Part shown: one piece after another, positions 4,926-37,927 of the stretch | Layout: each line of letters begins with the position of its first letter | How positions within the stretch are numbered: position 1 is the stretch's first letter | From: a virus | Reading direction: 5' to 3' (one strand) | IMG/VR virus record: IMGVR_UViG_3300032241_002567 | Span: 79,837-143,836 of that record | Length of the DNA stretch: 64,000 bases | The notes under the pieces: model-generated | Told to the model about the DNA's origin: nothing | The model's input: the letters and a program-made list of their open reading frames with translations, nothing else | Databases searched by the model: none | Translations under genes and position numbers: made by a program

Positions 4926-7525
4926 TTTCCTGCTAATAAATTATAATATGTTTCATATGAAATACCTTCAAAATCTTTTTTAAGTCTTGTAGGATCACTG
5001 AGTGTTTTACCAACAACAGATTCATCGCCAAATTCAGAACCTTTCATCAATTTAGCTAATGGTGCTCTAAGTTGTGTTTTTCTACCAATCCCTTTATCAG
5101 CACCAATAATAGTTGGCATAATGATTTCTTCTTCTATTTGGTCTGATAAATTTTTTTGATTCGTTGCTTTTTTTATACTTTTGAATTTAAATTTATTACC
5201 GTCTGATATAGGTTTTTCCATTTTAATTAATCCCATAAAGACATCACAATTAGCTTTGATTGGCTCATTGAAATAACTTTTTTCTAGTTGTGATCCACCA
5301 TAGTAAGCCCATATAAGACTTTCATTAAGCTTAGTGTATTTTACTAGTATATTGTTTTCTTGTTTTTCTATTACTTCACAAACTAATGTTGGATGTTTTG
5401 TTTTGATTATTTTTTTACCACTATTATCTTCTACTTCTTTTGAAGAAGTATATGTTATAGCAAAAAAGTTTCCTTTATCTAATTGATTATATGATAAACT
5501 TTTAGTTTCTTGCCAAAACAATTTATCACTAGTTTTAGTTTCATTTTCTAAATCTTTTTTATCATCAGAATATTTAGTTTCAATATCTTTCATATCTAGT
5601 CCAAAATATTTACTTATTAAAGTTGCTCTATTTTTTTCGTAAGATTTTAAAGTATTTTCATTAATCATATCTCTAATAAATTGCCCTAATGGATTGCCTG
5701 TAACAATTTTTTTACCCAATGTTGTTTTCATTTGCCCCCCACTTAATAACTTTTGATATCTAGGATTTTCTAATAAAGCAGAAATTTGATCAGTAAATTT
5801 ATCATATATTTTAATATTTACCCAAGGGCCATATCCAGGGCCAGCATTTTCACTAGGCACCGGCGCACTTTCTCTACTAGAACCAATATATTTATATTCA
5901 CTATAAGTTTGCATAGAAATTTTTCCATTAGGTCTATTTGAAGGTATAGTATTATGTTTATATAAACGATAGGCTTGACCAAATAAATTAGCAATAGAAA
6001 TTATACTTTCTCTTGCATCTTTATTTTGTTTCATTTCTTCTTTCATTTTATTGGTATTTGCTGGCATTTCAACACTATTTTCAACTTTTTCTGCAATTTC
6101 ATTTGCTTTTTTTAGTTCAACTTTCCATTTATTTTCTTCACCTTCAGAAAAATATTTTTCCCAAATTGTTTTAACGTTTTTTTCTTCACTTTCTTCGGTT
6201 TCATTTTCTTCTATCGATTCAACTTCTTCTTTTGATATATTTTCTTCTTCTGGTGATGGGGGAAGTGTAGCAATTTCCTCAAAAATTAAAGATTCTTTTT
6301 TAAGTGAGGAAATATTATATTCTTTTAACATAGATTCATATAAATTTATTATATTATCTATGTTAAGATATTTTTTATCTTTTAATGAATAAAATATTTG
6401 TAACATTGAAGCTATATCTTTTGAAATTTTATCAATATTTAAAGATTCGGTTACTGAAAAGCCTTTTATTTCATTAAAATTTTCTATAATAGAATAACCT
6501 AATTTTTTCAACTCATCTGAATTCTGATTATTTACCAATGTTCTTATTTCATTTAAATTTGATTTTAAATTTAAGTTAAAGACTCTTAATAGATTTTCAT
6601 ATGTTTTATCAGTTTGAATATGTACTGGTAAATTACTTTCTTTTATAAAATTAAAATATTTTAATTGTAAAAAATTTTCTTGTAATAAGCCATTTTTAAC
6701 AATTAAAACTTTTTTTGTCTTTGGATCAGTATAATCAATATTTATAACTGGTTCTAATTTTACATTTTTTGGATCAATAGTAAATATTGTTTTTGGGTAT
6801 GTTATATATTGCAATTTTAAACCATTTGTATCTATATCTAAAATTTTAACAAATCCAATTTTATTGTCCTTTGATGTATATTTATAAATTTTTCCCTTTT
6901 CAAATTTAGATTCTTCTTGTTTTTTTGGTTCATTTTGTATTTCATTGCCAAATATTAATAATTCTTTCAAAAATGATAAAACAGAATCATCAAAATTATC
7001 TTCTATTTGTTCTTCTTGTTTTGGAATTTTCATTTTTTCAAGTTCTTCTTTGAATTTTTCTAATTTATCAATTAAATCTTGTTTATTTCCTCCTTCGAAA
7101 CTATCATCAGGAAGTTTATTTATGAAATCTATGCAACCTGATATTAAACCATTTTCACCATTTTCTTTATCTAAAAGAAATTTAATTTTTTCTTCATCTG
7201 TTCGCTCACCAGCTACTATATTATAAATTTCTCTTAAAATTTCTTTGACTAATAAATCATTAGCAGCATTTTTTTCATCTGAAAAAGCAACTGCTATATT
7301 TTCTAATTCTTTTTCAATTGATTTAACTACTCCATCAATTTTAGTTAAATTATACCCAATTTTTAATTTTCTAATAGCTGAATTAATAAATCTACCTAAT
7401 AAAGATCCACCAAAAGTAATATTATTTGTTAATGAAGATTCATTTATTTTAAATTCTTCTTTTGTTTCAACTTTTATATCGTTAATTGTGGATAAAAATC
7501 CATTCCTATTGTATAAATATTTCAT
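4922..7525 (-). CDS. Large hypothetical protein, probable virion/internal protein
   Basis: 867-aa ORF with late motif at 7548; MKYL start, INE and internal LKYFNFIKES motifs; 4-bp overlap with downstream gene. Confidence 0.7.
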   Translation of the reverse strand: MKYLYNRNGFLSTINDIKVETKEEFKINESSLTNNITFGGSLLGRFINSAIRKLKIGYNLTKIDGVVKSIEKELENIAVAFSDEKNAANDLLVKEILREIYNIVAGERTDEEKIKFLLDKENGENGLISGCIDFINKLPDDSFEGGNKQDLIDKLEKFKEELEKMKIPKQEEQIEDNFDDSVLSFLKELLIFGNEIQNEPKKQEESKFEKGKIYKYTSKDNKIGFVKILDIDTNGLKLQYITYPKTIFTIDPKNVKLEPVINIDYTDPKTKKVLIVKNGLLQENFLQLKYFNFIKESNLPVHIQTDKTYENLLRVFNLNLKSNLNEIRTLVNNQNSDELKKLGYSIIENFNEIKGFSVTESLNIDKISKDIASMLQIFYSLKDKKYLNIDNIINLYESMLKEYNISSLKKESLIFEEIATLPPSPEEENISKEEVESIEENETEESEEKNVKTIWEKYFSEGEENKWKVELKKANEIAEKVENSVEMPANTNKMKEEMKQNKDARESIISIANLFGQAYRLYKHNTIPSNRPNGKISMQTYSEYKYIGSSRESAPVPSENAGPGYGPWVNIKIYDKFTDQISALLENPRYQKLLSGGQMKTTLGKKIVTGNPLGQFIRDMINENTLKSYEKNRATLISKYFGLDMKDIETKYSDDKKDLENETKTSDKLFWQETKSLSYNQLDKGNFFAITYTSSKEVEDNSGKKIIKTKHPTLVCEVIEKQENNILVKYTKLNESLIWAYYGGSQLEKSYFNEPIKANCDVFMGLIKMEKPISDGNKFKFKSIKKATNQKNLSDQIEEEIIMPTIIGADKGIGRKTQLRAPLAKLMKGSEFGDESVVGKTLSDPTRLKKDFEGISYETYYNLLAGK

Positions 7526-7660
7526 GAAAAAATATAATATTTTTAAGTATATATTAAACCTCTAAATCCTATTATAAAAAATTATAAAAAAACCTAATTT
7601 GAGGCATAAAATCTAATTTTTTTTGAAATATATAATGTATTAATTTAATAAATTAATTTT

Positions 7661-7945
7661 ATGAGATTCAAGGAATTAAAGGTAGGTGAAAAGATTTTAA
7701 CAAATTCTATGAATATAGAAGAAGAACTTACCAAACACAATATGCAGTGGTTAATTAACTCTGAAATAGAGAATGCTGTAGTGGAAATCAAAAACAATAC
7801 ATTAATCTGGAAAAATGGGACTTTTTTTGCTGGCAATTGGTATTATGGTATATGGCAAGATGGCAATTTTCACGGAACATGGGAAAATGGTATATGGGAA
7901 AATGGTCACTTTGACGGTAAATGGAAGTCTGGGATTAAAAACTAA
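7661..7945 (+). CDS. Hypothetical protein with [W/F]xxGx pentapeptide-like repeats
   Basis: WKNGT-FFAGN-WYYGI-WQDGN-FHGT-WENGI-WENGH-FDGK-WKSGI. Confidence 0.65.
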   Translation: MRFKELKVGEKILTNSMNIEEELTKHNMQWLINSEIENAVVEIKNNTLIWKNGTFFAGNWYYGIWQDGNFHGTWENGIWENGHFDGKWKSGIKN

Positions 7946-7979
7946 TCCAGAAATGGATATAAAAAATAAATTTTCTTTT

Positions 7980-8438
7980 ATGAAAAAGAAAAGGGTTTTA
8001 ACGAAAGTAAAAGAAATAACTGAAGTTATTTATGCATCAAGTAGAGTTAGAGTAAGTAAAGAATTAAACGGCGAATTATTTTTTGAAATTGAAAATGAAA
8101 TTACATCAGATTTATCAGAGGCAATAGCAATAGCATTACATAAGGGAATTATAGATAAAGAATTTTGGAAAATAACATTTAATATTGATATAAATAATAT
8201 ATCTCCTGATAAAGCTTTATACTGGCTTTCAGGCGGTGACATAGAATGGATTTCTAAAAACCATTATAACTTTAATTGGTCAGAAGTTTATTTAGCTTAC
8301 CAGGAAGAATTTGGACTAAGTATCATAGATATTATATCTAATTCATATAATTTTGAAGAAATTAAAAAAGAATTTTTAAATAAATTAAATCTTTCTATCT
8401 TATATGAATTCGCACTTGAAAATAATTTTGTTAAATAA
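7980..8438 (+). CDS. Hypothetical protein
   Basis: Track ORF 7815..8438; start moved to the ATG at 7980 (7953 also possible) to avoid overlap; followed by terminator. Confidence 0.6.
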   Translation: MKKKRVLTKVKEITEVIYASSRVRVSKELNGELFFEIENEITSDLSEAIAIALHKGIIDKEFWKITFNIDINNISPDKALYWLSGGDIEWISKNHYNFNWSEVYLAYQEEFGLSIIDIISNSYNFEEIKKEFLNKLNLSILYEFALENNFVK

Positions 8439-8475
8439 TTAAAAAGGAAGGCATATTAATGCCTTCCTTTTTAAT
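8438..8475 (+). terminator. Intrinsic terminator, 17-bp stem
   Basis: attaaaaaggaaggcat-atta-atgccttcctttttaat. Confidence 0.8.
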
Positions 8476-8484
8476 ATATACACT

Positions 8485-8754
8485 ATGGAAAATAAATCAA
8501 TTTGCTCAAATCCATGGTGTAAAGCACCTTATTCATATGAAGGAGATATTGCTCCTGGTCAATGTCCTAAATGTATAAGTTTTGATAAAGACTTATCAGG
8601 TGGAGTTACTTGGGTTACGAAAAATTATACAGAACCAAGAGACGATGGTAGAGTACACGAAATTATGATAAATATGGATGGAATGAGTAAATCAAATTAT
8701 AGTGGAAATGGAAGACCTTTATTGGGTTTAATTAAAAAATTTTTAGGAAAATGA
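8485..8754 (+). CDS. Small zinc-ribbon protein
   Basis: CSNPWC...CPKC; late motif at 8472. Confidence 0.7.
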   Translation: MENKSICSNPWCKAPYSYEGDIAPGQCPKCISFDKDLSGGVTWVTKNYTEPRDDGRVHEIMINMDGMSKSNYSGNGRPLLGLIKKFLGK

Positions 8755-9593
8755 TAGGACACATTTTTGATATTGATACATTAATTAGTGTTGATTCACA
8801 TCCTTGGATTGTTGATAAAAATAATCCAAATAATCCGTTAATGAAAATTTCTAAAACAGATTATAATTTATTTAAAAATGGAGTTTATAAAAAGCAAGGA
8901 AATAAAATCGAATATAATGGAAAAACATATTGGCTTCCAAGTGATGTGTTTGAAAAATTAAAAGTTATTGCTAAAAAAAATAAAATTGGATTGAATGACT
9001 TTGCTATATCTTTAAAAGAATTTTTAAATGAAGATATGGCTGATGAATTAAATTTTGAAATAAATTGGGAATCTATTAAACATTTAAAAAATAAAAACGA
9101 AGATATTTATATAGTTTGCTCTAATAATACTGAAAAATATTATGGAAAAATTTTAAAGAAATTAATGGAAAAATTAAAATGGGAAGGAATAGATGTTAAG
9201 AAATTTTATTATATTAATGAAACATTTTACAATATTAATACCGATGAAATAATTTTTAAAAAGGCATTAATTAATTTACAACATTTAATAGGATATGAAA
9301 TTCAAAAAGAAAAGTTTATAGATAAAGAAGTTACAAAATATTCAAAATTAAATTTTTATGATAATGACTTTGACACATTAAAAATGATAGATGAAATTAA
9401 TTCATATTTAAGGTTTATATTATCTAAATCAGATGTTGGAATCAAACAAGTTGTAAAAGAAGGAATTGACTATGATAAACCAGAATTTGTAGTAAATAAA
9501 ATAACAGGAAATAAATATAATAATATTATAACAAAATCAGTTAAAATTAATAATTCTTATCTAATGAAATTTGAAAATTTTAAATGGAAATAA
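8751..9593 (+). CDS. Hypothetical protein, possible HAD-like fold
   Basis: N-terminal IFDIDTL and late FYDND motifs; C-terminal YLMKFENF resembles the shared leader. Confidence 0.6.
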   Translation: MIGHIFDIDTLISVDSHPWIVDKNNPNNPLMKISKTDYNLFKNGVYKKQGNKIEYNGKTYWLPSDVFEKLKVIAKKNKIGLNDFAISLKEFLNEDMADELNFEINWESIKHLKNKNEDIYIVCSNNTEKYYGKILKKLMEKLKWEGIDVKKFYYINETFYNINTDEIIFKKALINLQHLIGYEIQKEKFIDKEVTKYSKLNFYDNDFDTLKMIDEINSYLRFILSKSDVGIKQVVKEGIDYDKPEFVVNKITGNKYNNIITKSVKINNSYLMKFENFKWK

Positions 9594-9625
9594 AAAAAGC
9601 GGTTTTAAACCGCTTTTTTTATTTC
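9587..9625. terminator. Bidirectional terminator, 19-bp arms
   Basis: gaaataaaaaaagcggttt-t-aaaccgctttttttatttc, covers both stop codons. Confidence 0.85.
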
Positions 9626-9984
9626 TTTTTCTTCCTTGCTTTAGCTTTTTTTGCCTGTGCCCATAATTTAGCATCCGCCTTTCTTGCTCCGCCAGCACCA
9701 GTTATAAACGAATTGACTCTTCCGGTTGCCCAAGCTTCCTGAGGTGTACCAGGACGATGTCCGGAATTCCAAGCGGCTCTTCCTTTTTTATATACTTTTT
9801 TTAGAATAGAAGAAGGTATACCACTTGCCTTTGATTTATTTGCTATCATTTTTGCGGCTTTTGAATTTGGATTATCAACCGAACCTGATTCTGAGCCTTC
9901 TAAAATAATATCTTCTATTAAATAGAAATAATCTTTAAAATCAATATCTTCGCAAAAATTTTCAAAAGTTTTAATATTTACCAT
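9619..9984 (-). CDS. Basic DUF5824-like viral protein with leader MVNIKTFENF
   Basis: SGIPSSILKKVYKKGRAAWNSGHRPG...WATGRVNSF motif. Confidence 0.65.
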   Translation of the reverse strand: MVNIKTFENFCEDIDFKDYFYLIEDIILEGSESGSVDNPNSKAAKMIANKSKASGIPSSILKKVYKKGRAAWNSGHRPGTPQEAWATGRVNSFITGAGGARKADAKLWAQAKKAKARKKKK

Positions 9985-10058
9985 AAATAAGTTATTTACT
10001 TATATATTTTGAATAAAATCATAACACCAGGAACGTGCCCACTATTAATATATAATAT

Positions 10059-11102
10059 ATGAAACATAAACATCATATTATACCAAAACACATGGGAGGT
10101 TCGAATGAAAACGAAAATTTAATTGAATTGACGATTGAAGAACATGCTGAGGCGCATAAAATTTTATATGAAAAATATGGCAAATTAGAAGACTTTTTAG
10201 CTTGGCGAGGTCTATTAGGTCAGATAAGTAAAGAAGAAATAATTTCAGAAATTTCAAAACAGAATGGCAAAATTAATGGTAAATTTTGTTTTGAAAATAA
10301 ATTAGGTATATTTTCTTTAACAGACAAAGAGAAAAAACTAAAAAATTATAAAGGCGGAAAAATAAGTGGTCTAAAAAATGCCAAATCAGGGCATTGTGCT
10401 AAAATTGCCAATTTGGGTGGTAAAGCATCTTCTGGTATGAAATTTTGGTTTAATCCAAAAACTAATAAAGAAACCAGGTCTTTTGAATGTCCGGGAAAAG
10501 AATGGATACCTGGTATTAAAATGGAACGAATAAATATAGAAAATTTAAAAAAACACTCTAATAATGTTAAAGGAAAATTTTGGATTCACAATCCAGATAC
10601 AAATGAGTCTAAAATGATATCATCAATAGATGAAATGCCTGAAGAGTTTATTTATGGTAGAAAAATTGAAATTAAAAATACCATTGAATTAATAAATGTT
10701 GGTTTTAATTTTAAATCAGAATTACCAAAAATAAAGTCAGAATTTAAAGATATTAGATTTGATAATTCATACAAAAGATGGATATTTGAATTTGAATTAA
10801 ATAATAAAAAACATAAAATTACACACATAGATTATTATGGACTTTTATGGAGTAGAGATTGTATTATTAATTATTATAAATTAGATAAGATAAAATCAAA
10901 AAAAATAGAAGATTCATTATCTAAAGAAGAAATTTCAGAATTGCTTAAAGATTTTAAAGAATATTTAAAAATTAAAAATATTTTGGCAAAAAAACTAAAA
11001 AAATCAAAAAAAGATGCATATTTTAAAAAATTATTAGAATATGAAAAAAATTATGATATTGTATTAGAAAAAATTCAAATTTATGATAAAAAAGAGGATT
11101 AA
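10059..11102 (+). CDS. HNH homing endonuclease
   Basis: HHIIPKHMGGSNENENLIELTIEEHAEAH nuclease core; two KFW-x-NP NUMOD-like DNA-binding repeats. Confidence 0.85.
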   Translation: MKHKHHIIPKHMGGSNENENLIELTIEEHAEAHKILYEKYGKLEDFLAWRGLLGQISKEEIISEISKQNGKINGKFCFENKLGIFSLTDKEKKLKNYKGGKISGLKNAKSGHCAKIANLGGKASSGMKFWFNPKTNKETRSFECPGKEWIPGIKMERINIENLKKHSNNVKGKFWIHNPDTNESKMISSIDEMPEEFIYGRKIEIKNTIELINVGFNFKSELPKIKSEFKDIRFDNSYKRWIFEFELNNKKHKITHIDYYGLLWSRDCIINYYKLDKIKSKKIEDSLSKEEISELLKDFKEYLKIKNILAKKLKKSKKDAYFKKLLEYEKNYDIVLEKIQIYDKKED

Positions 11103-11122
11103 ATTAATCCTCTTTTTTATCA
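11084..11122. terminator. 19-bp perfect palindrome spanning two convergent stop codons
   Basis: tgataaaaaagaggattaa-a-ttaatcctcttttttatca; both proteins end DKKED*. Confidence 0.85.
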
Positions 11123-11373
11123 AACATTCTTTGATAAGCTTTGGTTGCTGCGGATTTTTTAGTTTTTACTCTTTTGCCTTTACCACCTTTTCCAGAAGTA
11201 TAATCAGCATCCCAGTCTTTTTTATATTCTTTTTTACCACGAAATCTATCAATTTCTTTTTTCATAGCACCAGGATTTTTTGTCAAATATTTACCTGGTA
11301 TTTTATGACCTTTATAATATTCAGATTTCTTTTTTTCAAGTAAAAATTCTTCAAAAGTAAAAATATTTTCCAT
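11104..11373 (-). CDS. Small basic protein with leader MENIFTFEEFLLE
   Basis: Late motif at 11378; lysine-rich; leader ends in LLE, a candidate protease site. Confidence 0.7.
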   Translation of the reverse strand: MENIFTFEEFLLEKKKSEYYKGHKIPGKYLTKNPGAMKKEIDRFRGKKEYKKDWDADYTSGKGGKGKRVKTKKSAATKAYQRMFDKKED

Positions 11374-11383
11374 TAACTATATA

Positions 11384-11995
11384 TTATGGTTTATTTTTCA
11401 AATATTTTGATATTGCATCATTAAGATTTCTAGAATCCATTACTATATTATCTTTTGTTTCTTCGTCTTCAAATTCTTCTTCAACCATTTGATTTTGAAC
11501 TTCATTTAATCCAAAATCTTTTCTCATTTCTTTCCAGAATTTTTCTAAATCTGTTTTAACTGATGTATTAAATTTAATATTATCTCTCATCTGTGCCATA
11601 GTTTGATTTACAACTTCATGCATCCTTGCATTATTTTCACCATTATCAACTTGTCTTAATTGTGATATTAATGTTTTTCTTGTCATCTTAATTAAGAATA
11701 AAGTTTCGGCATAGTTTTGAGCGTCTTCTTCTATTTTATTTTTGATATACTGGTGTTCTTTCATCTTGGGCGCATCACCTAAATAAAGATCTAATAAGGA
11801 ATTTAATACATTATCTGCACGATTTTTTGACTCTGATAAATCATTTTCGTAATTATAAATTTCAATCTCACCTAATTCTGGCAAATCATCTAATTTAGCG
11901 AGATACATATTAACATCTAAATCTTTATTTTCTTCTTGAATTTTGTTAAATTCTTCTTGAAGATTATTTATTTTTTCATTTTTCTTATCCGCCAT
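11384..11995 (-). CDS. terS: Putative terminase small subunit
   Basis: Helical; ARMHEVVNQ resembles the PRxYEV motif of T4-like gp16; divergent from terL. Confidence 0.55.
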   Translation of the reverse strand: MADKKNEKINNLQEEFNKIQEENKDLDVNMYLAKLDDLPELGEIEIYNYENDLSESKNRADNVLNSLLDLYLGDAPKMKEHQYIKNKIEEDAQNYAETLFLIKMTRKTLISQLRQVDNGENNARMHEVVNQTMAQMRDNIKFNTSVKTDLEKFWKEMRKDFGLNEVQNQMVEEEFEDEETKDNIVMDSRNLNDAISKYLKNKP

Positions 11996-30155: not shown

Positions 30156-30410
30156 ATGTCTTTACCAAATTATAGTAAATGCTGTCAAAAGGTACAAGTT
30201 GTTTGCATAAATAACGATAATAAACCTTCCATTTTAACTGTTGGTAAAATATATGATGCAATTGATATGGAAACACAAACACATGTTACTAAATCAAAGG
30301 AATATAATTTAACTTCAGATGACGGATTCAGAGATAATCATTCAAAACATTTGTTTATAACATTATCTGAATTTAGAGAAGAAAGAATAAATAAAATTTT
30401 AGAAGATTAA
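30156..30410 (+). CDS. Hypothetical protein with C-terminal FREERINKILED motif
   Basis: ORF track; tail shared with 49742..50215. Confidence 0.6.
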   Translation: MSLPNYSKCCQKVQVVCINNDNKPSILTVGKIYDAIDMETQTHVTKSKEYNLTSDDGFRDNHSKHLFITLSEFREERINKILED

Positions 30411-30928
30411 CTTTTCTTCTTCCCAGGATTTAAATATCTATCAGTTATTATGGTAAATTCAAATCCTTTCTTTTTACACCATTCAATGCAATATTTCCAC
30501 TTATCTAAATTTTTCGAATATTCTTTTAGAGAATATTCGAAATTTTTTAATTGTTTTGCAGTTGGATTTGCTTGTAATTTTGGTGGTTGAGTTTCATGTT
30601 CTGGTTTTATTTCAGCTACAACTTTTGCGATTGAGCCATCAGCTTTTTTTATTTCATAATAAAAATCCGGAAAGTAAGTATGCTCTGTTAAAGTCATTTC
30701 TAATAACTTATTATTCCAAGCATTTTTAGTATATGGTATTTTTATAAGTTCAGTATTCCAATAAATAATATTTTCATTATTATCTAAATAAATCATAAAT
30801 TTTTGTTCAAGACTTGAACGATAAAATAATCCACCCTGATTATTTAATTTAATACATTTATTTTTATTTTTAGGAATAAATAACCCTTGCTTATATTTAC
30901 TAGATTTGTTTGGGGCTGAATTTAACAT
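30407..30928 (-). CDS. Head completion nuclease (T4 gp4-like, TnsA-type fold)
   Basis: YKQG-F-PKN, YRSSLE, YFPDF, EIKP, KW-C-KKGFEF. Confidence 0.85.
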   Translation of the reverse strand: MLNSAPNKSSKYKQGLFIPKNKNKCIKLNNQGGLFYRSSLEQKFMIYLDNNENIIYWNTELIKIPYTKNAWNNKLLEMTLTEHTYFPDFYYEIKKADGSIAKVVAEIKPEHETQPPKLQANPTAKQLKNFEYSLKEYSKNLDKWKYCIEWCKKKGFEFTIITDRYLNPGKKKS

Positions 30929-30970: not shown

Positions 30971-31651
30971 ATGGGAGATTTAATCAAAATAGTTAAGCAT
31001 GAATATCCTAATTTAGCAGAGAGCTATAAAGAAAATACTATGTTTTTTTATGATGCTTATCAAAAAAATTCTGCAGATGTAACTAATATAAATGTTGGTA
31101 AAATGCAATTAGGAGCATTTTATTTCCTTCAATATCAAGATGATTCAAATTGGATGCAATACTCACCAATTTTTACAGTAGATTTTAGAAAATTTGGTGA
31201 TATGATTATAATTCTCGCTGTCAATTTAAATTTTATACCTTTACAAGTCAGAGTTACAATTTTTGATAAATATATCACCGAAAAAGATTTAGAATCTAAT
31301 ACTTTATTTGATACGAATTATGAAAGTGTTTATAAATCATTTTTACAATATGGTTACGAATATGCAATAGTTGAATATAATATGAAACAAATTAAATTCG
31401 TACATAAAATTAAAAATTCTTTAATTCCAAAATTTTTATATTCTGGATTTCCAAAGAACAAATATGACCCAATAAAACTATATAGCATTTGGAAAACAAA
31501 ACTCAAAACCAGAGATAAAAGACATCAAGAAATGATGAACGCAGATATAAAAGATTTTTATGATACAGAGAATGAAATATTAAACGATTATAAAGCGCTG
31601 GAAAGCCATATTGATAGAATAAGAAAAAGTTATGGAAAATATGGAAAATAA
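30971..31651 (+). CDS. DNA end protector-like protein (T4 gp2-like)
   Basis: G-FYF-Y, SPIF, AVNLNFIP-R pattern; divergent from gp4. Confidence 0.55.
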   Translation: MGDLIKIVKHEYPNLAESYKENTMFFYDAYQKNSADVTNINVGKMQLGAFYFLQYQDDSNWMQYSPIFTVDFRKFGDMIIILAVNLNFIPLQVRVTIFDKYITEKDLESNTLFDTNYESVYKSFLQYGYEYAIVEYNMKQIKFVHKIKNSLIPKFLYSGFPKNKYDPIKLYSIWKTKLKTRDKRHQEMMNADIKDFYDTENEILNDYKALESHIDRIRKSYGKYGK

Positions 31652-32582
31652 TATTTTTGGATTAAATACTAATTTAGATGATTCAGAATTAGTTTTAATA
31701 TCAGTGCCTTGGGAAACAACAGTTTCTTACAGAAAAGGCACATCTAATGGGCCTAAATTTATTCTACAAGCTTCACCACAAGTAGACATGTTTGATCCAG
31801 ATTTTCACAATTCTAATAATAGTTTTTATATGCTTCCTATAAATGAAGATATGAGATTATTTTCGTTGGAATTACAAAATTTTACAGAGACAAATAAAAA
31901 TATAGTAAATGAAGGTTGTCAAAAAATGGTTAATTGGGTGTATGAAGAAACAAAAAAATATTTACCACTAAAAAAAATTGGATTAATAGGTGGTGAACAC
32001 AGTATATCTTTGGGTTATATAAAGGCTCTGTCAGAATTACATAATTTTGGCATATTACAGATAGATTCTCATTGTGATTTAAGAAATTCTTATAATGGTT
32101 TAATATACTCTCACGCTTCTATTATGCATAATGTTTTAAAAATTAAAGAGGTTACTAAATTAGTTCAAGTTGGTATAAGAGATTATTCTAAATCTGAATT
32201 TGAAACGATTCAAAATTCCGATGGAAGAATTATTACTTTTTTTGATAATGATATAAAAGATACTATTTATAAAGGGGCAAATTGGCATTCAATATGTCAA
32301 GAAATAATAGATTGCCTTCCTTATAAAGTTTATATAAGTTTTGATATAGATGGTTTAGATCCAAAATTATGCCCTGATACCGGAACACCAGTTCCTGGTG
32401 GATTTGACATGTATCAAATTTTTTATTTATTAAAATTATTAAAAGAATCGGGTAAAAGAATTATTGGATTTGATTTAAATGAAGTTAGCAATGGAAATTA
32501 TTCGGATGATACGATCAATTCAATAACTGGTGCTCGTGTTTTATATAAATTATGCAATTTATTATGCAATTCAGACAAATAA
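31632..32582 (+). CDS. speB: Agmatinase (ureohydrolase family)
   Basis: GTSNGP, GGEHS, DSHCD, SHAS, GIRD, SFDIDGLDP-TGTPVPGG, GFDLNEV metal-binding motifs. Confidence 0.85.
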   Translation: MENMENNIFGLNTNLDDSELVLISVPWETTVSYRKGTSNGPKFILQASPQVDMFDPDFHNSNNSFYMLPINEDMRLFSLELQNFTETNKNIVNEGCQKMVNWVYEETKKYLPLKKIGLIGGEHSISLGYIKALSELHNFGILQIDSHCDLRNSYNGLIYSHASIMHNVLKIKEVTKLVQVGIRDYSKSEFETIQNSDGRIITFFDNDIKDTIYKGANWHSICQEIIDCLPYKVYISFDIDGLDPKLCPDTGTPVPGGFDMYQIFYLLKLLKESGKRIIGFDLNEVSNGNYSDDTINSITGARVLYKLCNLLCNSDK

Positions 32583-32974
32583 AATTAGAAGATATAGATT
32601 ATATAATTGAAATTTTTAAACAAAAATCTTTACTTTGTGCAGATGGAAAATATGTTAGTAAAGATTGGATAGAATGTTTTATTAACAACGGATTTGCATT
32701 TTGTTTAGAAGAACAAAATGAGATAAAATCTGCTCTAATTGCAGAAACTATTTTAATGAATGGTGTTTTATTATGGATGATTGCTGTTAAAGAAGAATTG
32801 AAGGGACAAGGTTATGGGCAAAAACTTTTAACTTTTTTTGAATGTCAAATGAAAGAATCAGGAAAAAAATGGATTTTTCTTAATTCTACTCCTGATTCTA
32901 AATCATTTTACAGAAAAAATGGCTTCTCCACTACTGATTTTAGTTTAGTATTTGAACATATTAAAGAATTGTAG
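32552..32974 (+). CDS. GNAT N-acetyltransferase
   Basis: IAV-EELKGQGYGQKLL, FYRKNGF. Confidence 0.85.
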   Translation: MQFIMQFRQIKLEDIDYIIEIFKQKSLLCADGKYVSKDWIECFINNGFAFCLEEQNEIKSALIAETILMNGVLLWMIAVKEELKGQGYGQKLLTFFECQMKESGKKWIFLNSTPDSKSFYRKNGFSTTDFSLVFEHIKEL

Positions 32975-34229
32975 TTTTACTTATCGGTCTTTCGAAAGAT
33001 TTTACACTTATACCATTTTTGATTGCAGTTAAAATTCCAGCAGCTTCAAAATAATTATTGGCTCTAAAAAAATGTCCAAATTTCCAAGGAAGTTTGTCTA
33101 AATCATTTTTCATCATATTTCTATTGTCATTGATAGCAATAACAATTATATCCTGTTCTAACGCCGCTAAAAGCGGTAATCCTATGCATCTATCCGGAGT
33201 AATTAAAACATGTATATCTCTATTAGTAAATATTCCAGGTTCTATAATATAATCAACTATTTTTGGAGCTTTATGCATACCTTTTATAGTGCAAAATAAT
33301 TCAGTTTTAGACATTACTTCCGGAGATTTAACCGGGTCTACAACTTTATTACCTTGAAATTGAAATATATCATTATTATCAAATAACATAGGTGAGTGTG
33401 CTACATTTACTTTTAATAATTTGGAAAGTGAGTGTGTAATTATACTTTCAATTCCACCCCAAGGATTTACATCTATTTTATTTTCAAAATAAGCAACTGT
33501 TATATCATATTCACCATCTATTTTTGTATGTAAAATAAAAGAATCGTATTCTTTAATATATTTCTTCATAACATTAATTAAACGTTCAAAATATTCAATA
33601 GAACCTACTGCTATGCTATTATCATTATAAAATGATTTATATTCTGGTATATCTTCTAATCTCAAAACATCAATCTCACAACCTAATGTAACTCTTGCAG
33701 ATGATGCTGCATTTACTGCTAATGCTTCCACCTCTTTATCATTTTTATCATATAGCATTAAAATTCTATTAGATAAAACAGGTTGTAATCCTATATTTCC
33801 TAATATAAAATCATTTAAAACACTACCTTCTAAATAATAAGTATTAGATGTCATTTCATTTATATCAGCAGCATTTACAACATTAGGATGTGTAAATAAA
33901 TTATCAACTACATTTCCTATTAATCTTGCAGCAACATTTCCATCCCCAGAATCTCCACCAATTTCTGAACCTATCCCAGTAGGAATTATCATCATTGCGT
34001 TAAAATTTAAATTATTTGTTGTTTTTCTTGGATTAAATTTGAATATATTATTAGGAACGATATTGTCTATATTTTGTATCTCGGCATATTCACATTCTAT
34101 ATTTGAATAGTTATTTACTATAGCAAATCTTGTAACGAATTTATTTTCATATAATTCTTTAAGTTTTTGGATATTACCTCTTTTTTGCAGAGTAAAATCA
34201 AAAATTGATTGGTTTTGGATAATGTTCAT
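32961..34229 (-). CDS. DUF3326-family protein
   Basis: IIPTGIGSEIGGDSGDG, THPNVVNAADI, EGS-L, VNPWGGIESIITH, AHSP, G-HKAP, NYFEAAG. Confidence 0.8.
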   Translation of the reverse strand: MNIIQNQSIFDFTLQKRGNIQKLKELYENKFVTRFAIVNNYSNIECEYAEIQNIDNIVPNNIFKFNPRKTTNNLNFNAMMIIPTGIGSEIGGDSGDGNVAARLIGNVVDNLFTHPNVVNAADINEMTSNTYYLEGSVLNDFILGNIGLQPVLSNRILMLYDKNDKEVEALAVNAASSARVTLGCEIDVLRLEDIPEYKSFYNDNSIAVGSIEYFERLINVMKKYIKEYDSFILHTKIDGEYDITVAYFENKIDVNPWGGIESIITHSLSKLLKVNVAHSPMLFDNNDIFQFQGNKVVDPVKSPEVMSKTELFCTIKGMHKAPKIVDYIIEPGIFTNRDIHVLITPDRCIGLPLLAALEQDIIVIAINDNRNMMKNDLDKLPWKFGHFFRANNYFEAAGILTAIKNGISVKSFERPISKTTIL

Positions 34230-34270
34230 TTGTTACGAATTTTTTTAATATATATAAAAAAATTGTTATT

Positions 34271-35131
34271 ATGTTGTTAAATTACGAAGACCATAAAAAT
34301 CTTAAAGATATTGAAAAATTACTCAAAAAACCAGTTAATGGCGGAAAAGATAATGAAAGAAGTATTTTAAATAAATTAAAATCTTTAAGATATAAAGAGT
34401 TAGATAATAAAATAATTACTAAAATATTAAATCATTTTGTCGAATCTGACGAAGATTTTATAAATGATCCAAAATGGGGTCTCAATGCTGAATATACATT
34501 TGATGCAAGTAAATTTTTAATTAATTTAAAAAAATCTAAATTATCTTTTATGGATTTTTTTACAAGGAAATTAAATCAAAAATTGCATATTCAAATCGGT
34601 GAAAATGCTAAAAAATGTAATATGATTATACCTAATGAGTGCTATATAGAATCAATAGGTAATTTTAATAAGGAAGGCAGACCTGAAAATAAAATTTTAA
34701 GATTAAAAAAATCTTCTGGTAAATACGCCACAGAAGATTTGAAAAAACTTAATATTGATGTAGAAGGTTATAATTATATAAATATGAAACTTTTAGTTAC
34801 ATTTTATCATAGAATTCATTGTCCAATATCTGGTAAAATAACTCAAATGATTCCTATTGAAGGTAAAGATGATTTTTTTGGTAAAAATACACTATGGATT
34901 ATTAAATTTGAAACTGAAAAGAGTCCAGTTTATTTAATGCTTGTTGGAGAATCTACTATACAGGATTTTGATTTTCTAAAGGAAAAAGAAGATAATGTAA
35001 ATATTTATGATTATTTAGGATATTTTAATTGGGGTTCACAAACGGTTATATTATATAATCCGAAAGATTTTTCTGAGTTAGAAATAGAAGCTAAGAAAAA
35101 ATACTTTGTGGGAGATTGTATATTTAAATAG
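34271..35131 (+). CDS. Divergent phosphatidylserine-decarboxylase-like (pyruvoyl) enzyme
   Basis: SFMDFFTRKL, YHRIHCPISG, LVGE, GYFNWGSQTVIL (G-S autocleavage site). Confidence 0.7.
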   Translation: MLLNYEDHKNLKDIEKLLKKPVNGGKDNERSILNKLKSLRYKELDNKIITKILNHFVESDEDFINDPKWGLNAEYTFDASKFLINLKKSKLSFMDFFTRKLNQKLHIQIGENAKKCNMIIPNECYIESIGNFNKEGRPENKILRLKKSSGKYATEDLKKLNIDVEGYNYINMKLLVTFYHRIHCPISGKITQMIPIEGKDDFFGKNTLWIIKFETEKSPVYLMLVGESTIQDFDFLKEKEDNVNIYDYLGYFNWGSQTVILYNPKDFSELEIEAKKKYFVGDCIFK

Positions 35132-35185
35132 GAAGATTATAACTTTAGATATATAATTAAAAATAATTAAAAATAATTAAAATTT

Positions 35186-36970
35186 ATGGCTAGTTATAAT
35201 CCAATAAATCAAGGTCAAGGCAATGTTAATATTGCATCTATGGCTGGTGAAAATAAAGGTATATTTAATAGATTACTTAGAAACTTGTCTAACTTTGGAA
35301 TGAAGTATGATGATATGATAATAAGAAACACAGTGGGTATATCAATGAACGAGGACCCATTATCACAGAAAAATAATTCTATGTATGATTTTTTTAGTCA
35401 GAGAGCAATTGCACAAGTTTTAAACAAAAAAGCAATACCATACTTAGATAAATCTTATTCAGATAAAAGAAGAATTCTTAGAGAATATTCTATTAAGGAT
35501 GAAATTAGAGATTATATCTCAATAATATCTGATGAAGCAATCATTTTTAACGGACAAGACTTTTGTTCCCCAGTTCCTCTATCAAATAGTTATTCTAGTG
35601 AAATAAGAAATAAATATCAAGAATTTTTTGAAAAAATCTATAATAGGTATAGTTTTTCTGATACAATTACAGCATGGAATTTAATGAAAGATTTTTTAAT
35701 TGATGGTTTTATAGCTTTCGAAATTGTATGGGACGATAAAAAACAAAATATTATTTCTTTTAACAGATTAAGACCTGATACATTGGTTCCTTCTTATGAG
35801 CCAACTATTGGAAATTTATGGATACAATATCCAGAAGATCCGCAATTAAGAAGAATATTCTTAGATTCTCAATTAATTTTAATTTCTTACACAACACAGA
35901 ATGATTTTTCCGAAACTTCCTATGTCGAAGGTTTAATTAAACCTTATAATCAATTAAAGATAATTGAGCAAACTAGAATAATGTATAATATTATTAATGC
36001 AACAGTTTATCAAAAATTTACAATACCAACTAAAGGTTTATCGAGACAAAAAGCTGAAGAGCAAATTGGACAATTAATAGCTAATTATTCTGAACATGTT
36101 GAATGGGACGATTCATTAGGCACATTATTAATAAATGGTAGTAAACATTTACCTTACAATAAACAACTTTGGTTTCCTGATGGCGATCAAGGAACTCCAC
36201 AATTTGAGTTGGTTTCTCCTACCGGTAATGATTTAAATGAAGAAGGTGTTTTAAAATATTTTGCTAATAATTTAAAAAGAGCCTCAAAGATTCCTATGCC
36301 ACGATTTGATTTTGCAGCAGGTGGTGGAAATATTTTTACTTTAGATGCAGCTGACGTAAATGTAGAAGAAAATAAATTTGCTAATTTTATTAATAGGTTA
36401 AGAGCTAATTTTAAAGAATTAATTACAAAACCTTTAAAATTACAAATGTGTATGGAATTTCCTGAATTAAAAGATGATGAAGTATTTTTAAACAATATAG
36501 ATATAGCTTTTAGTTCAAATCAAACTATAGAAGAATGGAAAAGAATTAAAACTTATACAAAAAAAATAGAAGCAGCAACGAATGTTCAGAATCTTAAAAA
36601 AGAAGATGGAACTTCCTATTTTCATATTGATTTTATTGTTAATAATATTTTAAAATTAACACAACAAGAAATAGAAGAAAATCAAGCTTATTGGATTAAA
36701 TCTAAAAGCACTGGTGTAGCAGTTCCTGGAACACAAGGAGCAGCCCCCGGTAGCGAATTAGGTGGAATTCCTGGTGGTGAATTAGGTGGATCTCCTGGTG
36801 GTGAATTAGGTGGATCTCCTGGTGGCGAATTAGGTGGGACAACTCCGCAAGGTGGACAATCTGGTGCAGAAACCACACCATCTGAAGGTGGCCAATCAGG
36901 AGCACAAACTAAACCACCAGCACAAGGCGGTGCACAAGCGGGAGGAGGAACCCCAGAATTTGAATTCTAA
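35186..36970 (+). CDS. Portal protein (T4 gp20-like)
   Basis: FLIDG, SYVEGLIKPYNQLKIIE, YFANNLKRASKIPMPRF, ENKFANFINRLR. Confidence 0.88.
   Translation: MASYNPINQGQGNVNIASMAGENKGIFNRLLRNLSNFGMKYDDMIIRNTVGISMNEDPLSQKNNSMYDFFSQRAIAQVLNKKAIPYLDKSYSDKRRILREYSIKDEIRDYISIISDEAIIFNGQDFCSPVPLSNSYSSEIRNKYQEFFEKIYNRYSFSDTITAWNLMKDFLIDGFIAFEIVWDDKKQNIISFNRLRPDTLVPSYEPTIGNLWIQYPEDPQLRRIFLDSQLILISYTTQNDFSETSYVEGLIKPYNQLKIIEQTRIMYNIINATVYQKFTIPTKGLSRQKAEEQIGQLIANYSEHVEWDDSLGTLLINGSKHLPYNKQLWFPDGDQGTPQFELVSPTGNDLNEEGVLKYFANNLKRASKIPMPRFDFAAGGGNIFTLDAADVNVEENKFANFINRLRANFKELITKPLKLQMCMEFPELKDDEVFLNNIDIAFSSNQTIEEWKRIKTYTKKIEAATNVQNLKKEDGTSYFHIDFIVNNILKLTQQEIEENQAYWIKSKSTGVAVPGTQGAAPGSELGGIPGGELGGSPGGELGGSPGGELGGTTPQGGQSGAETTPSEGGQSGAQTKPPAQGGAQAGGGTPEFEF
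36746..36838 (+). repeat. Four 24-nt coding repeats (PGGELGG[S/I]) in portal C-terminal tail
   Basis: cctggtggtgaattaggtggatct units. Confidence 0.9.
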
Positions 36971-37033
36971 AAGATTGAATAAATTAAAAAACCTTAACTA
37001 AATGTTAAGGTTTTTTAATTTATTCAATCTTTT
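36969..37033. terminator. 30-bp perfect stem, bidirectional terminator
   Basis: aaaagattgaataaattaaaaaaccttaac-taaat-gttaaggttttttaatttattcaatctttt. Confidence 0.88.
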
Positions 37034-37403
37034 TCTTTTTCGGATTATCTACACCATATTTTTCAATTAAAGTATTTTGTATTTTATCTTTAATTTCTTG
37101 ATTTTGTATAGGGTAATCAACACCATAATTTTTATTTAATGATCTTCTTCTTTTGTGTTCTGAGCATTTCCTGCAATTATATTCTCCCCAATTATTATCA
37201 TATTTTATATAATTTTTATACATTACTTCTTTTTCTTTACCACAAAAATCACATTTACACAAAATTTTATAATGACTTCCAGTAGATAATAAACCTGGTG
37301 GTATAACTATTGTATCACCTATACTAACACTATATCCACATTCTTCATAATGTTCATAATTAGATTCACTTATTTTTACAGTGACTTCTTTTGTAAGTAT
37401 CAT
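37020..37403 (-). CDS. Zn-ribbon/YG-repeat protein matching the N-terminal part of the Hef-like endonuclease, no nuclease domain
   Basis: CKCDFCG..CRKC..NYGVDYPIQ..KYGVDNP parallels 26381..28234. Confidence 0.7.
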   Translation of the reverse strand: MILTKEVTVKISESNYEHYEECGYSVSIGDTIVIPPGLLSTGSHYKILCKCDFCGKEKEVMYKNYIKYDNNWGEYNCRKCSEHKRRRSLNKNYGVDYPIQNQEIKDKIQNTLIEKYGVDNPKKKKIE

Positions 37404-37770: not shown

Positions 37771-37927
37771 ATAAATTTTATATTGAATATTTAAATAAGT
37801 TTATAAAAAATCCACATAATTTCATTATTTATTGATATTTGCAATAATGGCGACTATAAACAATCCGTCGTTTTTAAATTAGATATAAACCAAGTGATAT
37901 ATATACTATAAAAATAAATTATAACAA

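What the first reader, a model, noticed from the sequence alone, without database searches (positions are those of the whole stretch)
31632..35131. Late-expressed agmatinase / GNAT / DUF3326 / pyruvoyl-decarboxylase cassette inside the head module
Seen: four enzyme-like genes sit between gp4/gp2 and portal. Agmatinase overlaps the gp2-like gene, GNAT overlaps agmatinase, and DUF3326 converges on GNAT. DUF3326 shares a 41-bp spacer containing TAATATATATA with the divergent PSD-like gene. The PSD-like protein keeps YHR-H and the G-S cleavage site but has altered neighbouring motifs (VGESTIQ, WGSQTV). Established: agmatinase makes putrescine, and polyamines neutralise packaged DNA or modify bases in some phages. 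DUF3326 has no function known to me and I know it mainly from cyanobacteria and plants. Inference: an undescribed amine pathway (decarboxylate, hydrolyse, acetylate) tied to virion assembly, which would also give a context clue for DUF3326.
Basis: partly seen in the sequence, partly recalled or inferred. Interest (0 to 1): 0.72.

Follow-up and report, generated by a model that had tools for sequence, protein, structure and literature searches.

The report
Phage polyamine-making cassette with DUF3326
A huge uncultured phage carries, between its head-completion and portal genes, four enzyme genes that most likely build and tune a spermidine-like polyamine, using an unstudied enzyme family (DUF3326) that sat next to a decarboxylase in 96 of the 111 loci surveyed here.

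Summary
Four intact enzyme genes lie between the gp4 and gp2-like genes and the T4-type portal gene: an agmatinase-family ureohydrolase, a GNAT, a DUF3326 protein and a PSD-fold pyruvoyl decarboxylase.

The core unit is DUF3326 plus the PSD-like decarboxylase. They are adjacent in the window and in ten other viral or metagenomic loci, and their DUF3326 proteins form one clade. In 85 further loci DUF3326 sits beside an AdoMetDC-like or an NspC-like decarboxylase.

All four families recur as one co-directional operon on a freshwater phage-like contig. A close relative of this phage carries a decayed copy. More distant relatives have other genes in the same slot.

The best reading is an accessory polyamine route that starts from agmatine. 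DUF3326 would build a carboxylated intermediate, the decarboxylase would trim it, the ureohydrolase would unmask the amine, and the GNAT would acetylate. The step order is inferred, not shown.

A TAATATATA-like motif shared with the portal and protease genes fits late expression. No link to virion assembly is shown.

This scan has found the DUF3326-decarboxylase pair many times on other DNA. New here are the PSD-fold partner and the ureohydrolase and GNAT additions.

The parts
30407..30928 (-). gp4-like head-closure gene, the left border of the slot
   Evidence: PHROG 218 'head closure' 1.8e-34; Pfam Tn7_TnsA-like_N. It is 84-88% identical in relatives L011, L012 and L116.
30971..31651 (+). 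gp2-like ORF (name by synteny only); its promoter-like motif probably also drives the agmatinase and GNAT genes
   Evidence: No Pfam or PHROG hit. It is conserved next to gp4 in L001, L002, L011, L012 and L116. An ATATATA motif begins 23 nt upstream of the start codon.
31632..32582 (+). Agmatinase-family Mn ureohydrolase (316 aa)
   Evidence: PF00491 170 bits. TIGR01230 agmatinase scores 163.2, just under its cut-off of 174.3. Metal motifs GGEHS, DSHCD and SFDIDGLDP are present. The nearest solved structures are agmatinases 3lhl and 3pzl. The nearest cellular homologues, at 53-59% identity, include the only named ones, 'agmatinase family protein' of Bacteroidota.
32552..32974 (+). Small GNAT N-acetyltransferase (140 aa)
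   Evidence: PF13508, PF13673 and PF00583; PHROG 1249 acetyltransferase. A 31%-identical GNAT sits in the L117 operon.
32961..34229 (-). DUF3326 protein (422 aa), the proposed condensing enzyme
   Evidence: PF11805 216.8 bits. The AF2 model has pLDDT 87, with only generic Rossmann-like fold matches. Sixty-two residues are invariant across 26 homologues, including the loop PTGIGxExGGDSGDG. It is sister to the L117 copy inside a clade made only of PSD-like-linked copies.
34230..34270 (.). 41-nt divergent spacer with one palindromic TAATATATATA promoter-like element
   Evidence: Sequence. ATATATA lies within 50 nt upstream of 39 of 70 genes, against 3% of random and 9% of intergenic 50-mers.
34271..35131 (+). 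PSD-fold, probably pyruvoyl-dependent decarboxylase (286 aa); predicted self-cleavage at G255/S256
   Evidence: PF02666 59 bits. YHRxH and G-S are invariant. Foldseek top hits are PsiD, A. oryzae arginine decarboxylase and E. coli PSD. Its subfamily has only 31 representatives at E<=1e-30 among 1.84 billion.
35186..36970 (+). T4-type portal gene, the right border of the slot
   Evidence: Portal_T4 6e-54; PHROG 213.

Best explanation
This is an accessory polyamine-biosynthesis cassette of a huge T4-related phage. The core is a two-enzyme unit. DUF3326 joins an amine to an amino-acid-derived chain and gives a carboxylated intermediate. Here the amine is most likely host agmatine, and the step parallels carboxyspermidine or carboxyaminopropylagmatine dehydrogenase. 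The PSD-fold pyruvoyl enzyme then removes the carboxyl group. The agmatinase-family ureohydrolase converts the guanidino end to an amine, which yields a spermidine-like triamine. The GNAT acetylates the product or an intermediate to tune its charge. PSD-like and DUF3326 are read from one shared TAATATATA-type element. The agmatinase and GNAT genes have no element of their own and overlap their upstream genes, so they are probably read from the gp2-like promoter. The same element precedes the portal and protease genes, so expression is probably late. Shown: gene content, conservation, co-occurrence and family or fold membership. Inferred: substrates, step order, product and timing.
For: (1) DUF3326 and PSD-like are adjacent in the window, in nine IMG/VR loci (L004-L012) and in L117. 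These DUF3326 proteins form one clade with SH-aLRT 99.
(2) Across 111 loci, the gene next to DUF3326 is AdoMetDC-family in 70, NspC-like in 14 and PSD-like in 11. NspC-like and AdoMetDC-like partners swap at least 5-8 times between close DUF3326 relatives, which implies equivalent roles.
(3) The NspC-like partner scores 296 bits on TIGR01047 carboxynorspermidine decarboxylase against 103 bits on lysA. Five genomes with this pair have no Sacchrp_dh_C (CASDH/HSS) match at all. DUF3326 therefore sits where CASDH normally sits.
(4) Genetic data on PavB (DUF3326) and PavA (NspC-like): the triamine bis(5-aminopentyl)amine needs both, although signals consistent with cadaverine were detected in extracts of every strain, including the one lacking pavA (bioRxiv 10.64898/2026.06.12.731819). 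So the decarboxylase is probably not just the diamine supplier.
(5) Other neighbours are polyamine enzymes: glutathionylspermidine synthase in 6 loci and a glutamine-synthetase-family ligase in 3 loci. The ligase passes the type III glutamine synthetase cut-off and has a weaker, below-cut-off match to gamma-glutamylputrescine synthetase.
(6) All four families form one operon in L117, in the order agmatinase, DUF3326, GNAT, PSD-like. That side of the contig was seen independently in other lake samples.
(7) There is a known three-step parallel from agmatine, CAPADH, CAPADC and a ureohydrolase (PMC10599626). Bacteroides fragilis uses the CAPADH/CAPADC steps (PMC13683441). The named nearest cellular kin of the phage ureohydrolase are from Bacteroidota.
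(8) A promoter-like motif is shared with structural genes.
Against: No biochemical data exist for any of these four proteins. DUF3326 has no recognisable cofactor motif and only generic fold matches, so a reductive condensation is a guess. The closest folds to the PSD-like protein include free amino-acid decarboxylases, among them an arginine decarboxylase. PSD-like genes also occur without DUF3326 on four small viral fragments. Both points fit a decarboxylase that acts first. The five genomes with the NspC-like pair also have SpeE or a DHS homologue, so the product need not be spermidine. The cassette is dispensable: it is absent from L001 and L002 and decayed in L116. The host phylum is inferred, not shown.
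Confidence: 0.45

Rival explanations
1. The pathway is the same kind but runs in the opposite order, like the SpeY or homospermidine-synthase routes. The PSD-like enzyme is an arginine (or ornithine or lysine) decarboxylase that makes agmatine. DUF3326 couples two amines. The ureohydrolase then removes the guanidino groups, or first makes putrescine, giving homospermidine or a similar triamine.
For: Foldseek ranks the soluble PSD-family amino-acid decarboxylases PsiD (3e-6) and A. oryzae arginine decarboxylase 9jer (5e-4) above E. coli PSD (PMC12904898). AdoMetDC-family proteins are known to have become arginine and ornithine decarboxylases (PMC10407285). An arginine decarboxylase, SpeY and a bis-guanidino-homospermidine ureohydrolase form a known three-gene logic (PMC13625781). 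PSD-like genes occur alone in some phage fragments. The PavAB product is a symmetric triamine, which is what amine-amine coupling would give.
Against: The NspC-like partners resemble carboxy-polyamine decarboxylases far more than ornithine or lysine decarboxylases. In the Pav system, cadaverine signals plus PavB without PavA gave no triamine. DUF3326 has no detectable relation to DHS/SpeY or HSS.
Confidence: 0.25
2. The DUF3326-decarboxylase product is a specialised conflict metabolite rather than bulk polyamine. Bacteria wire the pair into Septu anti-phage operons, and the phage copy counteracts, mimics or exploits that chemistry.
For: In 19 of 80 bacterial loci the pair directly follows genes that match PADLOC PtuA (1e-51) and PtuB (8e-53) on the same strand. 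Earlier notes of this scan report the same link. The cassette sits in a variable accessory slot and is lost in relatives.
Against: No Septu or other defence gene lies next to the phage cassette, and the four proteins have no PADLOC hit. No metabolite or phenotype is known. The added ureohydrolase and GNAT are ordinary polyamine-handling enzymes.
Confidence: 0.12
3. The genes are four independent insertions with unrelated roles. The PSD-like enzyme makes phosphatidylethanolamine from phosphatidylserine, the agmatinase simply makes putrescine, and the adjacency is an accident of a recombination hotspot.
For: The slot is a hotspot with different cargo in relatives. The window is mosaic: its PSD-like protein is 70-72% identical to those of L011 and L012, while its DUF3326 is only 52-53% identical to theirs and 69-70% to that of L117. 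Pfam and NCBIfam name the decarboxylase after PSD.
Against: All four families recur together in a different order and orientation in L117. The DUF3326 plus PSD-like pair is conserved over deep divergence, about 40% identity. The PSD-like subfamily is tiny and separate from canonical PSDs, with best NCBIfam PSD scores of 20-40 bits against cut-offs of 112-371. Its N-terminal 90 residues are charged, not hydrophobic.
Confidence: 0.05

Closest known systems
PavA/PavB of the pavettamine cluster (Burkholderia s.l.; bioRxiv 10.64898/2026.06.12.731819)
   Same: PavB is a DUF3326 protein that acts with a decarboxylase. Both are needed for a triamine, bis(5-aminopentyl)amine. It was the only DUF3326 protein with genetic data among the three papers that the full-text search for 'DUF3326' returned.
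   Different: The PavA decarboxylase is PLP-dependent, NspC-like and fused to a Rieske domain. The phage uses a PSD-fold pyruvoyl enzyme. The Pav cluster has no ureohydrolase or GNAT, it hydroxylates its product, and it is bacterial rather than phage-borne.
Carboxyaminopropylagmatine route to spermidine: CAPADH, CAPADC and aminopropylagmatine ureohydrolase (PMC10599626; PMC13683441)
   Same: It has the same three-part logic as proposed here: a condensing enzyme, a decarboxylase and an agmatinase-family ureohydrolase, starting from agmatine. Bacteroides fragilis uses the CAPADH and CAPADC steps.
   Different: CAPADH belongs to the saccharopine-dehydrogenase family and CAPADC is PLP-dependent. 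Neither is homologous to DUF3326 or to the PSD-like enzyme. The similarity is in how it would work, not in membership.
Arginine decarboxylase, SpeY and bis-guanidino-homospermidine ureohydrolase (PMC13625781)
   Same: It combines a decarboxylase, a coupling enzyme and an agmatinase homologue, with arginine decarboxylases drawn from several folds.
   Different: SpeY is a deoxyhypusine-synthase homologue and DUF3326 is not. In that pathway the decarboxylase acts first.
Soluble PSD-family amino-acid decarboxylases: A. oryzae Ao-ADC1 (PDB 9JER) and PsiD (PDB 8X4Q)
   Same: They share the PF02666 fold, the Gly-Ser self-cleavage that forms a pyruvoyl group, the conserved processing histidine and a helical N-terminal region. 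They are the top structural matches.
   Different: Sequence identity is only 12-15%. The phage motif is WGSQT rather than GGST. The phage protein is shorter (286 aa) and its substrate is unknown.
Phage- and virus-encoded polyamine enzymes (PMC9992855)
   Same: These are viral auxiliary genes for making or acetylating spermidine or homospermidine, including pyruvoyl decarboxylases and spermidine N-acetyltransferases.
   Different: That survey found only one agmatinase homologue in a phage genome. A term search of its main text for 'phosphatidylserine' found nothing, and it was not among the three papers returned for 'DUF3326'.

Membership tests
Phosphatidylserine decarboxylase family (PF02666), pyruvoyl enzymes | Match to the family HMM above the curated cut-off | tested here: met
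   59 bits against a cut-off of 22, covering profile positions 1-196 of 198.
Phosphatidylserine decarboxylase family (PF02666), pyruvoyl enzymes | Gly-Ser self-cleavage site and the processing histidine (YHRxH) | tested here: met
   G255-S256, H180 and H183 are invariant in 11 homologues. YHRIH aligns with YHRVH of E. coli PSD. Cleavage itself is not testable here.
Phosphatidylserine decarboxylase family (PF02666), pyruvoyl enzymes | Aspartate of the processing triad (the PADG motif of E. coli PSD) | tested here: inconclusive
   The aligned motif is IIPNEC, with Glu at the Asp position. It is conserved in at least 90% of homologues.
Phosphatidylserine decarboxylase family (PF02666), pyruvoyl enzymes | PSD fold | tested here: met
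   The AF2 model has pLDDT 78. Foldseek hits are PsiD at 3e-6, Ao-ADC1 at 5e-4 and E. coli PSD at TM 0.51-0.59.
Bona fide phosphatidylserine decarboxylase (lipid substrate) | Equivalog-level match to PSD | tested here: not met
   NCBIfam PSD models score 20-40 bits against cut-offs of 112-371. The subfamily has 31 representatives at E<=1e-30, apart from canonical PSDs.
Arginase/agmatinase ureohydrolases (PF00491) | HMM match and binuclear-Mn ligand motifs | tested here: met
   170 bits. GGEHS, DSHCD and SFDIDGLDP are read directly from the sequence.
Agmatinase proper (TIGR01230 equivalog) | Score above the equivalog cut-off | tested here: not met
   163.2 bits against 174.3, a narrow miss. Substrate choice among agmatine, aminopropylagmatine and bis-guanidino compounds is not testable here.
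DUF3326 (PF11805) | HMM match above the cut-off over the full domain | tested here: met
   216.8 bits, covering profile positions 2-336 of 337.
DUF3326-decarboxylase pair | An adjacent decarboxylase gene | tested here: met
   The PSD-like gene lies 41 nt away, divergent. In the ten other PSD-like-linked loci the two genes are co-directional and adjacent.
CASDH/CAPADH (saccharopine-dehydrogenase family) | Homology of the condensing enzyme to Sacchrp_dh | tested here: not met
   The Pfam scan returned only PF11805. The A1 profile search of PDB sequences gave nothing below E = 0.1. Saccharopine reductase 1e5l scores only Z 8.3, tied with many unrelated Rossmann folds.
GNAT acetyltransferases | HMM match | tested here: met
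   PF13508 at 40.7 bits, PF13673 and PF00583.
Spermidine N-acetyltransferase (SpeG/SSAT type) | Specific similarity to characterised polyamine acetyltransferases | tested here: inconclusive
   Only two generic GNAT structures appear, at E about 0.004-0.007. NCBIfam best hits are weak, to RimI and ArsN2.
T4-type late genes | A late-promoter element upstream | tested here: inconclusive
   A TAATATATA-like motif is enriched upstream of 39 of 70 genes, including portal and protease, and is present in the DUF3326/PSD-like spacer. No transcription data exist.

The most novel reading that the evidence does not exclude
DUF3326 founds a new class of polyamine-building enzyme that replaces carboxyspermidine or carboxyaminopropylagmatine dehydrogenase. 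Its carboxylated product can be trimmed by decarboxylases of three unrelated folds. This phage encodes a complete route from agmatine to a spermidine-like triamine that is not orthologous to the host route. It switches the route on late, perhaps to supply counter-ions for packaging a genome of about half a megabase.
Probability: 0.3. Interest if true: 0.8.

Novelty: new variant of a known kind. Interest (0 to 1): 0.6.

Why it matters
Polyamine biosynthesis is a textbook case of convergent evolution, and phage-encoded polyamine enzymes are a recent topic. This cassette points to a further, uncharacterised route built around DUF3326, a family spread over many bacterial phyla and phages.

The cassette adds two useful clues. 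A third decarboxylase fold (PSD-like) can partner DUF3326. A dedicated ureohydrolase points to agmatine or another guanidino-amine as the substrate.

The four small genes are an easy set to express and assay. A result would assign a function to a Pfam 'domain of unknown function'. It would also help to explain why the same pair is wired into Septu defence operons in bacteria.

Tried and rejected
The contigs of the closest DUF3326 homologues (P0001-P0007, 70-91% identity) could therefore not be read. P0002 (DUF3326, 76%) and P0426 (agmatinase, 59%) both list a JGI contig of 8,415 bp, which hints at a further co-occurrence, but this is unverified.
- tblastn of the DUF3326 and PSD-like proteins against GenBank phages found nothing.
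- Fold searches for DUF3326 gave only generic Rossmann-like matches: lumazine synthase, GT-B, OTCase and periplasmic binding proteins, with best Z 9.8 (Foldseek PDB and VIA wide). The PDB profile search found nothing. The ESM Atlas returned only DUF3326 clusters. No cofactor could be assigned.
- I considered DUF3326 as a spermidine-synthase analogue that uses decarboxylated AdoMet. I set this aside because NspC-like and PSD-like partners do not make that donor.
- L117 looked like an organelle genome carrying the cassette, with nad7, nad5, rps12 and six tRNAs on its left side. Laying contigs from independent runs showed that no contig of the four runs laid bridges 6586-6637. In two of them the cassette side continues leftwards into a different, shared sequence. 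I therefore read L117 as a chimeric assembly and rejected an organellar cassette.
- The neighbourhoods of the Bacteroidota agmatinase-family homologues were uninformative about substrate. They hold pyruvate kinase, PFK, radical SAM, GidA and MFS genes.
- The 144-kb record holds no AdoMet_dc and no Orn/Arg decarboxylase. CheckV rates it 26% complete, so this does not show absence from the phage.
- The slot ORFs of L001 and L002 have no Pfam family.
- No RNA evidence for the cassette: the one RNA run laid covered only the mitochondrial side of L117.

Full report
**What is there**

The window is AT-rich (about 25% G+C). It lies in a 143,836-bp IMG/VR virus record that CheckV rates 26% complete. 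Its nearest GenBank relatives are the 635-735-kb 'huge phage' assemblies LR745206 and LR756501-4.

Seven ORFs cover the region:

| ORF | Coordinates | Strand |
|---|---|---|
| gp4-like head closure | 30407-30928 | - |
| gp2-like (no HMM hit) | 30971-31651 | + |
| arginase/agmatinase-family | 31632-32582 | + |
| GNAT | 32552-32974 | + |
| DUF3326 | 32961-34229 | - |
| PSD-family | 34271-35131 | + |
| T4-type portal | 35186-36970 | + |

The family assignments are solid.

**The core is a conserved pair**

I aligned DUF3326 homologues (A1). With that alignment I fetched 32 viral loci and 80 loci from species-representative genomes, each with flanks. I then called ORFs and clustered the neighbours.

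In nine IMG/VR contigs (L004-L012) DUF3326 is followed directly, on the same strand, by a homologue of the window's PSD-like gene. Those homologues are 40-72% identical to it.

Elsewhere DUF3326 is preceded on the same strand by one of two other decarboxylases. A small AdoMet_dc-family protein is adjacent in 70 loci, including about 20 viral contigs. A PLP-dependent decarboxylase fills the place in 14 loci, and its best family is carboxynorspermidine decarboxylase NspC, at 296 bits against 103 for lysA.

So 96 of 111 loci have a decarboxylase of one of three unrelated folds within two genes of DUF3326. Several of the others are cut by a contig end.

On a DUF3326 tree the PSD-like-linked proteins form one clade (SH-aLRT 99). 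NspC-like and AdoMetDC-like partners alternate at least 5-8 times among close relatives. The partners therefore look functionally interchangeable.

**Do the four genes belong together?**

- **L117.** On this lake-metagenome contig the order is agmatinase homologue (45% identity), DUF3326 (69%), GNAT (31%) and PSD-like (48%). All are co-directional and tightly packed, and a GH16 gene follows.
- **A check on L117.** Its left 6.6 kb is mitochondrial-type DNA. I laid contigs from four independent runs. None of them bridges 6586-6637. In two of them the cassette side continues leftwards into a different, shared sequence that carries the ATATATA motif. I therefore read L117 as a chimeric assembly. 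Its cassette half is a real AT-rich, phage-like genome seen in several samples.
- **Closest relatives L011 and L012.** Their gp4 is 84-86% and their portal 80-86% identical to the window's. They have gp4, gp2-like, DUF3326, PSD-like and portal, with no agmatinase or GNAT.
- **L116.** Its portal is 86% identical. It has an intact agmatinase (79%). Only remnants of DUF3326 (residues 1-89 and 350-422, minus strand) and of PSD-like (residues 1-51) remain, and there is no GNAT.
- **L001 and L002.** In these more distant relatives the slot holds unrelated small ORFs.

The window is also mosaic. Its PSD-like protein is closest to those of L011 and L012 (70-72%). Its DUF3326 is sister to that of L117 (69-70%) and only 52-53% identical to those of L011 and L012.

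The cassette is thus a mobile, dispensable accessory module in a recombination-prone slot. It is not part of the head machinery.

**What the individual proteins tell**

- **Ureohydrolase.** It keeps the Mn-ligand motifs. It is nearest to solved agmatinases. It narrowly misses the agmatinase equivalog cut-off. Its nearest cellular homologues are 53-59% identical, and the few that carry a name are 'agmatinase family proteins' of Bacteroidota. This fits the Bacteroidota host suggested in earlier notes of this scan, though the host is not shown.
- **PSD-like protein.** It is a genuine PF02666 member, with the Gly-Ser site and the processing histidine invariant. Its model matches best the soluble amino-acid decarboxylases PsiD and A. 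oryzae arginine decarboxylase, then E. coli PSD. Its N-terminal 90 residues are charged rather than hydrophobic. Its subfamily is tiny, with 31 representatives at E<=1e-30 among 1.84 billion. A lipid substrate is therefore unlikely.
- **DUF3326.** It folds confidently (pLDDT 87). Only generic Rossmann-like similarities appear and no solved relative exists. Sixty-two residues are invariant across 26 homologues, including a glycine-rich loop after the first strand. It looks like an enzyme, but no cofactor can be named.

**Mechanism**

Four lines favour DUF3326 acting first to make a carboxylated amino-acid-like intermediate, which the partner then decarboxylates. This is the logic of CASDH/CASDC and of the carboxyaminopropylagmatine route.

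1. The PLP-dependent partners are NspC-like.
2. Five genomes with that pair have no Sacchrp_dh_C match at all, so the NspC-like gene is an 'orphan' with DUF3326 in the CASDH position.
3. The partners are interchangeable on the tree.
4. In the only genetic study, the triamine bis(5-aminopentyl)amine required both PavA (NspC-like) and PavB (DUF3326). Signals consistent with cadaverine were detected in extracts of every strain, including the one expressing pavBC only.

Neighbouring glutathionylspermidine synthase genes, and glutamine-synthetase-family ligases with a weaker gamma-glutamylputrescine-synthetase match, also point to a polyamine product.

A dedicated ureohydrolase in the cassette makes agmatine the natural starting amine. 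This mirrors the known CAPADH, CAPADC and ureohydrolase pathway (PMC10599626). Bacteroides fragilis uses the CAPADH and CAPADC steps (PMC13683441).

The main rival keeps the pathway type but reverses the order. There the PSD-like enzyme is an arginine decarboxylase and DUF3326 is a SpeY/HSS-like coupler (PMC13625781). Three points support it: the Ao-ADC1 fold match, the known AdoMetDC-to-ADC/ODC shifts (PMC10407285), and PSD-like genes that stand alone on four viral fragments. I rate the two orders about 0.45 and 0.25.

A third reading is that the product serves phage-host conflict. In 19 of 80 bacterial loci the pair follows Septu PtuA and PtuB, which I confirmed with PADLOC. Nothing in the window speaks for it directly.

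**Timing**

ATATATA, usually as TAATATATA, lies within 50 nt upstream of 39 of 70 genes in the window. The figure is 3% for random 50-mers and 9% for intergenic 50-mers. The motif precedes gp4, gp2-like, portal and the prohead protease.

One palindromic copy sits in the DUF3326/PSD-like spacer and could serve both genes. The agmatinase and GNAT genes have no copy and overlap their upstream genes, so they are probably co-transcribed from the gp2-like promoter.

This fits late expression, by analogy with T4's TATAAATA (from my own knowledge), but no transcript data exist. Any role in neutralising packaged DNA is speculation.

**Novelty**

In the paper library searched, 'DUF3326' appears in only three papers, and only the 2026 pavettamine preprint gives function data. 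The 2023 survey of viral polyamine enzymes found a single phage agmatinase, a term search of its main text for 'phosphatidylserine' found nothing, and it was not among the three DUF3326 papers.

Within this scan the DUF3326-decarboxylase pair has been noted many times on other DNA, including one unfollowed note of a DUF3326 plus PSD-like operon. The general idea is therefore not new to the scan.

This locus adds four things: the PSD-fold partner as a distinct viral clade, the ureohydrolase and GNAT extension, the comparative history of the slot, and a compact four-gene set suited to biochemical tests.

Noticed in passing
window-wide; for example 34241-34251, 35149-35155 and 37897-37903: A TAATATATA-like element lies within 50 nt upstream of 39 of 70 genes, against 3% of random and 9% of intergenic 50-mers. 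It is probably this phage's late-promoter analogue of T4 TATAAATA.
   Followed up: partly
L117:1-6600 versus 6637-11469: The JGI contig Ga0214166_1001183 joins a mitochondrial-type genome piece (nad7, nad5, rps12 and six tRNAs) to the phage-like cassette. No contig of the four runs laid bridges the junction, and in two of them the cassette side has a different left flank, so the contig looks like a chimeric assembly.
   Followed up: yes
L042, L046, L047, L049, L050, L076, L081, L086, L090, L094, L096, L098, L103, L108, L114, L115 and others: In 19 of 80 bacterial loci the decarboxylase-DUF3326 pair is the tail of a same-strand operon that starts with Septu PtuA and PtuB (PADLOC 1e-51 and 8e-53).
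   Followed up: partly
L104, L107, L109, L111, L112, L113: In alphaproteobacterial loci a glutathionylspermidine synthase gene (PF03738, 2e-128) sits directly upstream of the AdoMetDC-like and DUF3326 genes. In L071, L091 and L101 a glutamine-synthetase-family ligase follows DUF3326. It passes the type III glutamine synthetase cut-off, with a weaker match to gamma-glutamylputrescine synthetase.
   Followed up: partly
L116:7080-7679: A close relative of the phage keeps an intact agmatinase gene, but only fragments of DUF3326 (internal deletion of about residues 90-349) and of the PSD-like gene (first 51 codons). It has lost the GNAT. This is a snapshot of cassette decay.
   Followed up: yes
window 37020-37403 (-): A small ORF with DUF7487 and homing-endonuclease PHROG matches sits between the portal and prohead protease genes. 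L011 and L012 have a homologue at the same place.
   Followed up: no
L124:4961-6830 and L129:5767-8334: PSD-like genes without DUF3326 occur in small phage fragments. One lies between a Mu-F-like head gene and a virion-morphogenesis gene. Another lies next to PAPS-reductase/DUF3440 and ParB-like genes.
   Followed up: partly
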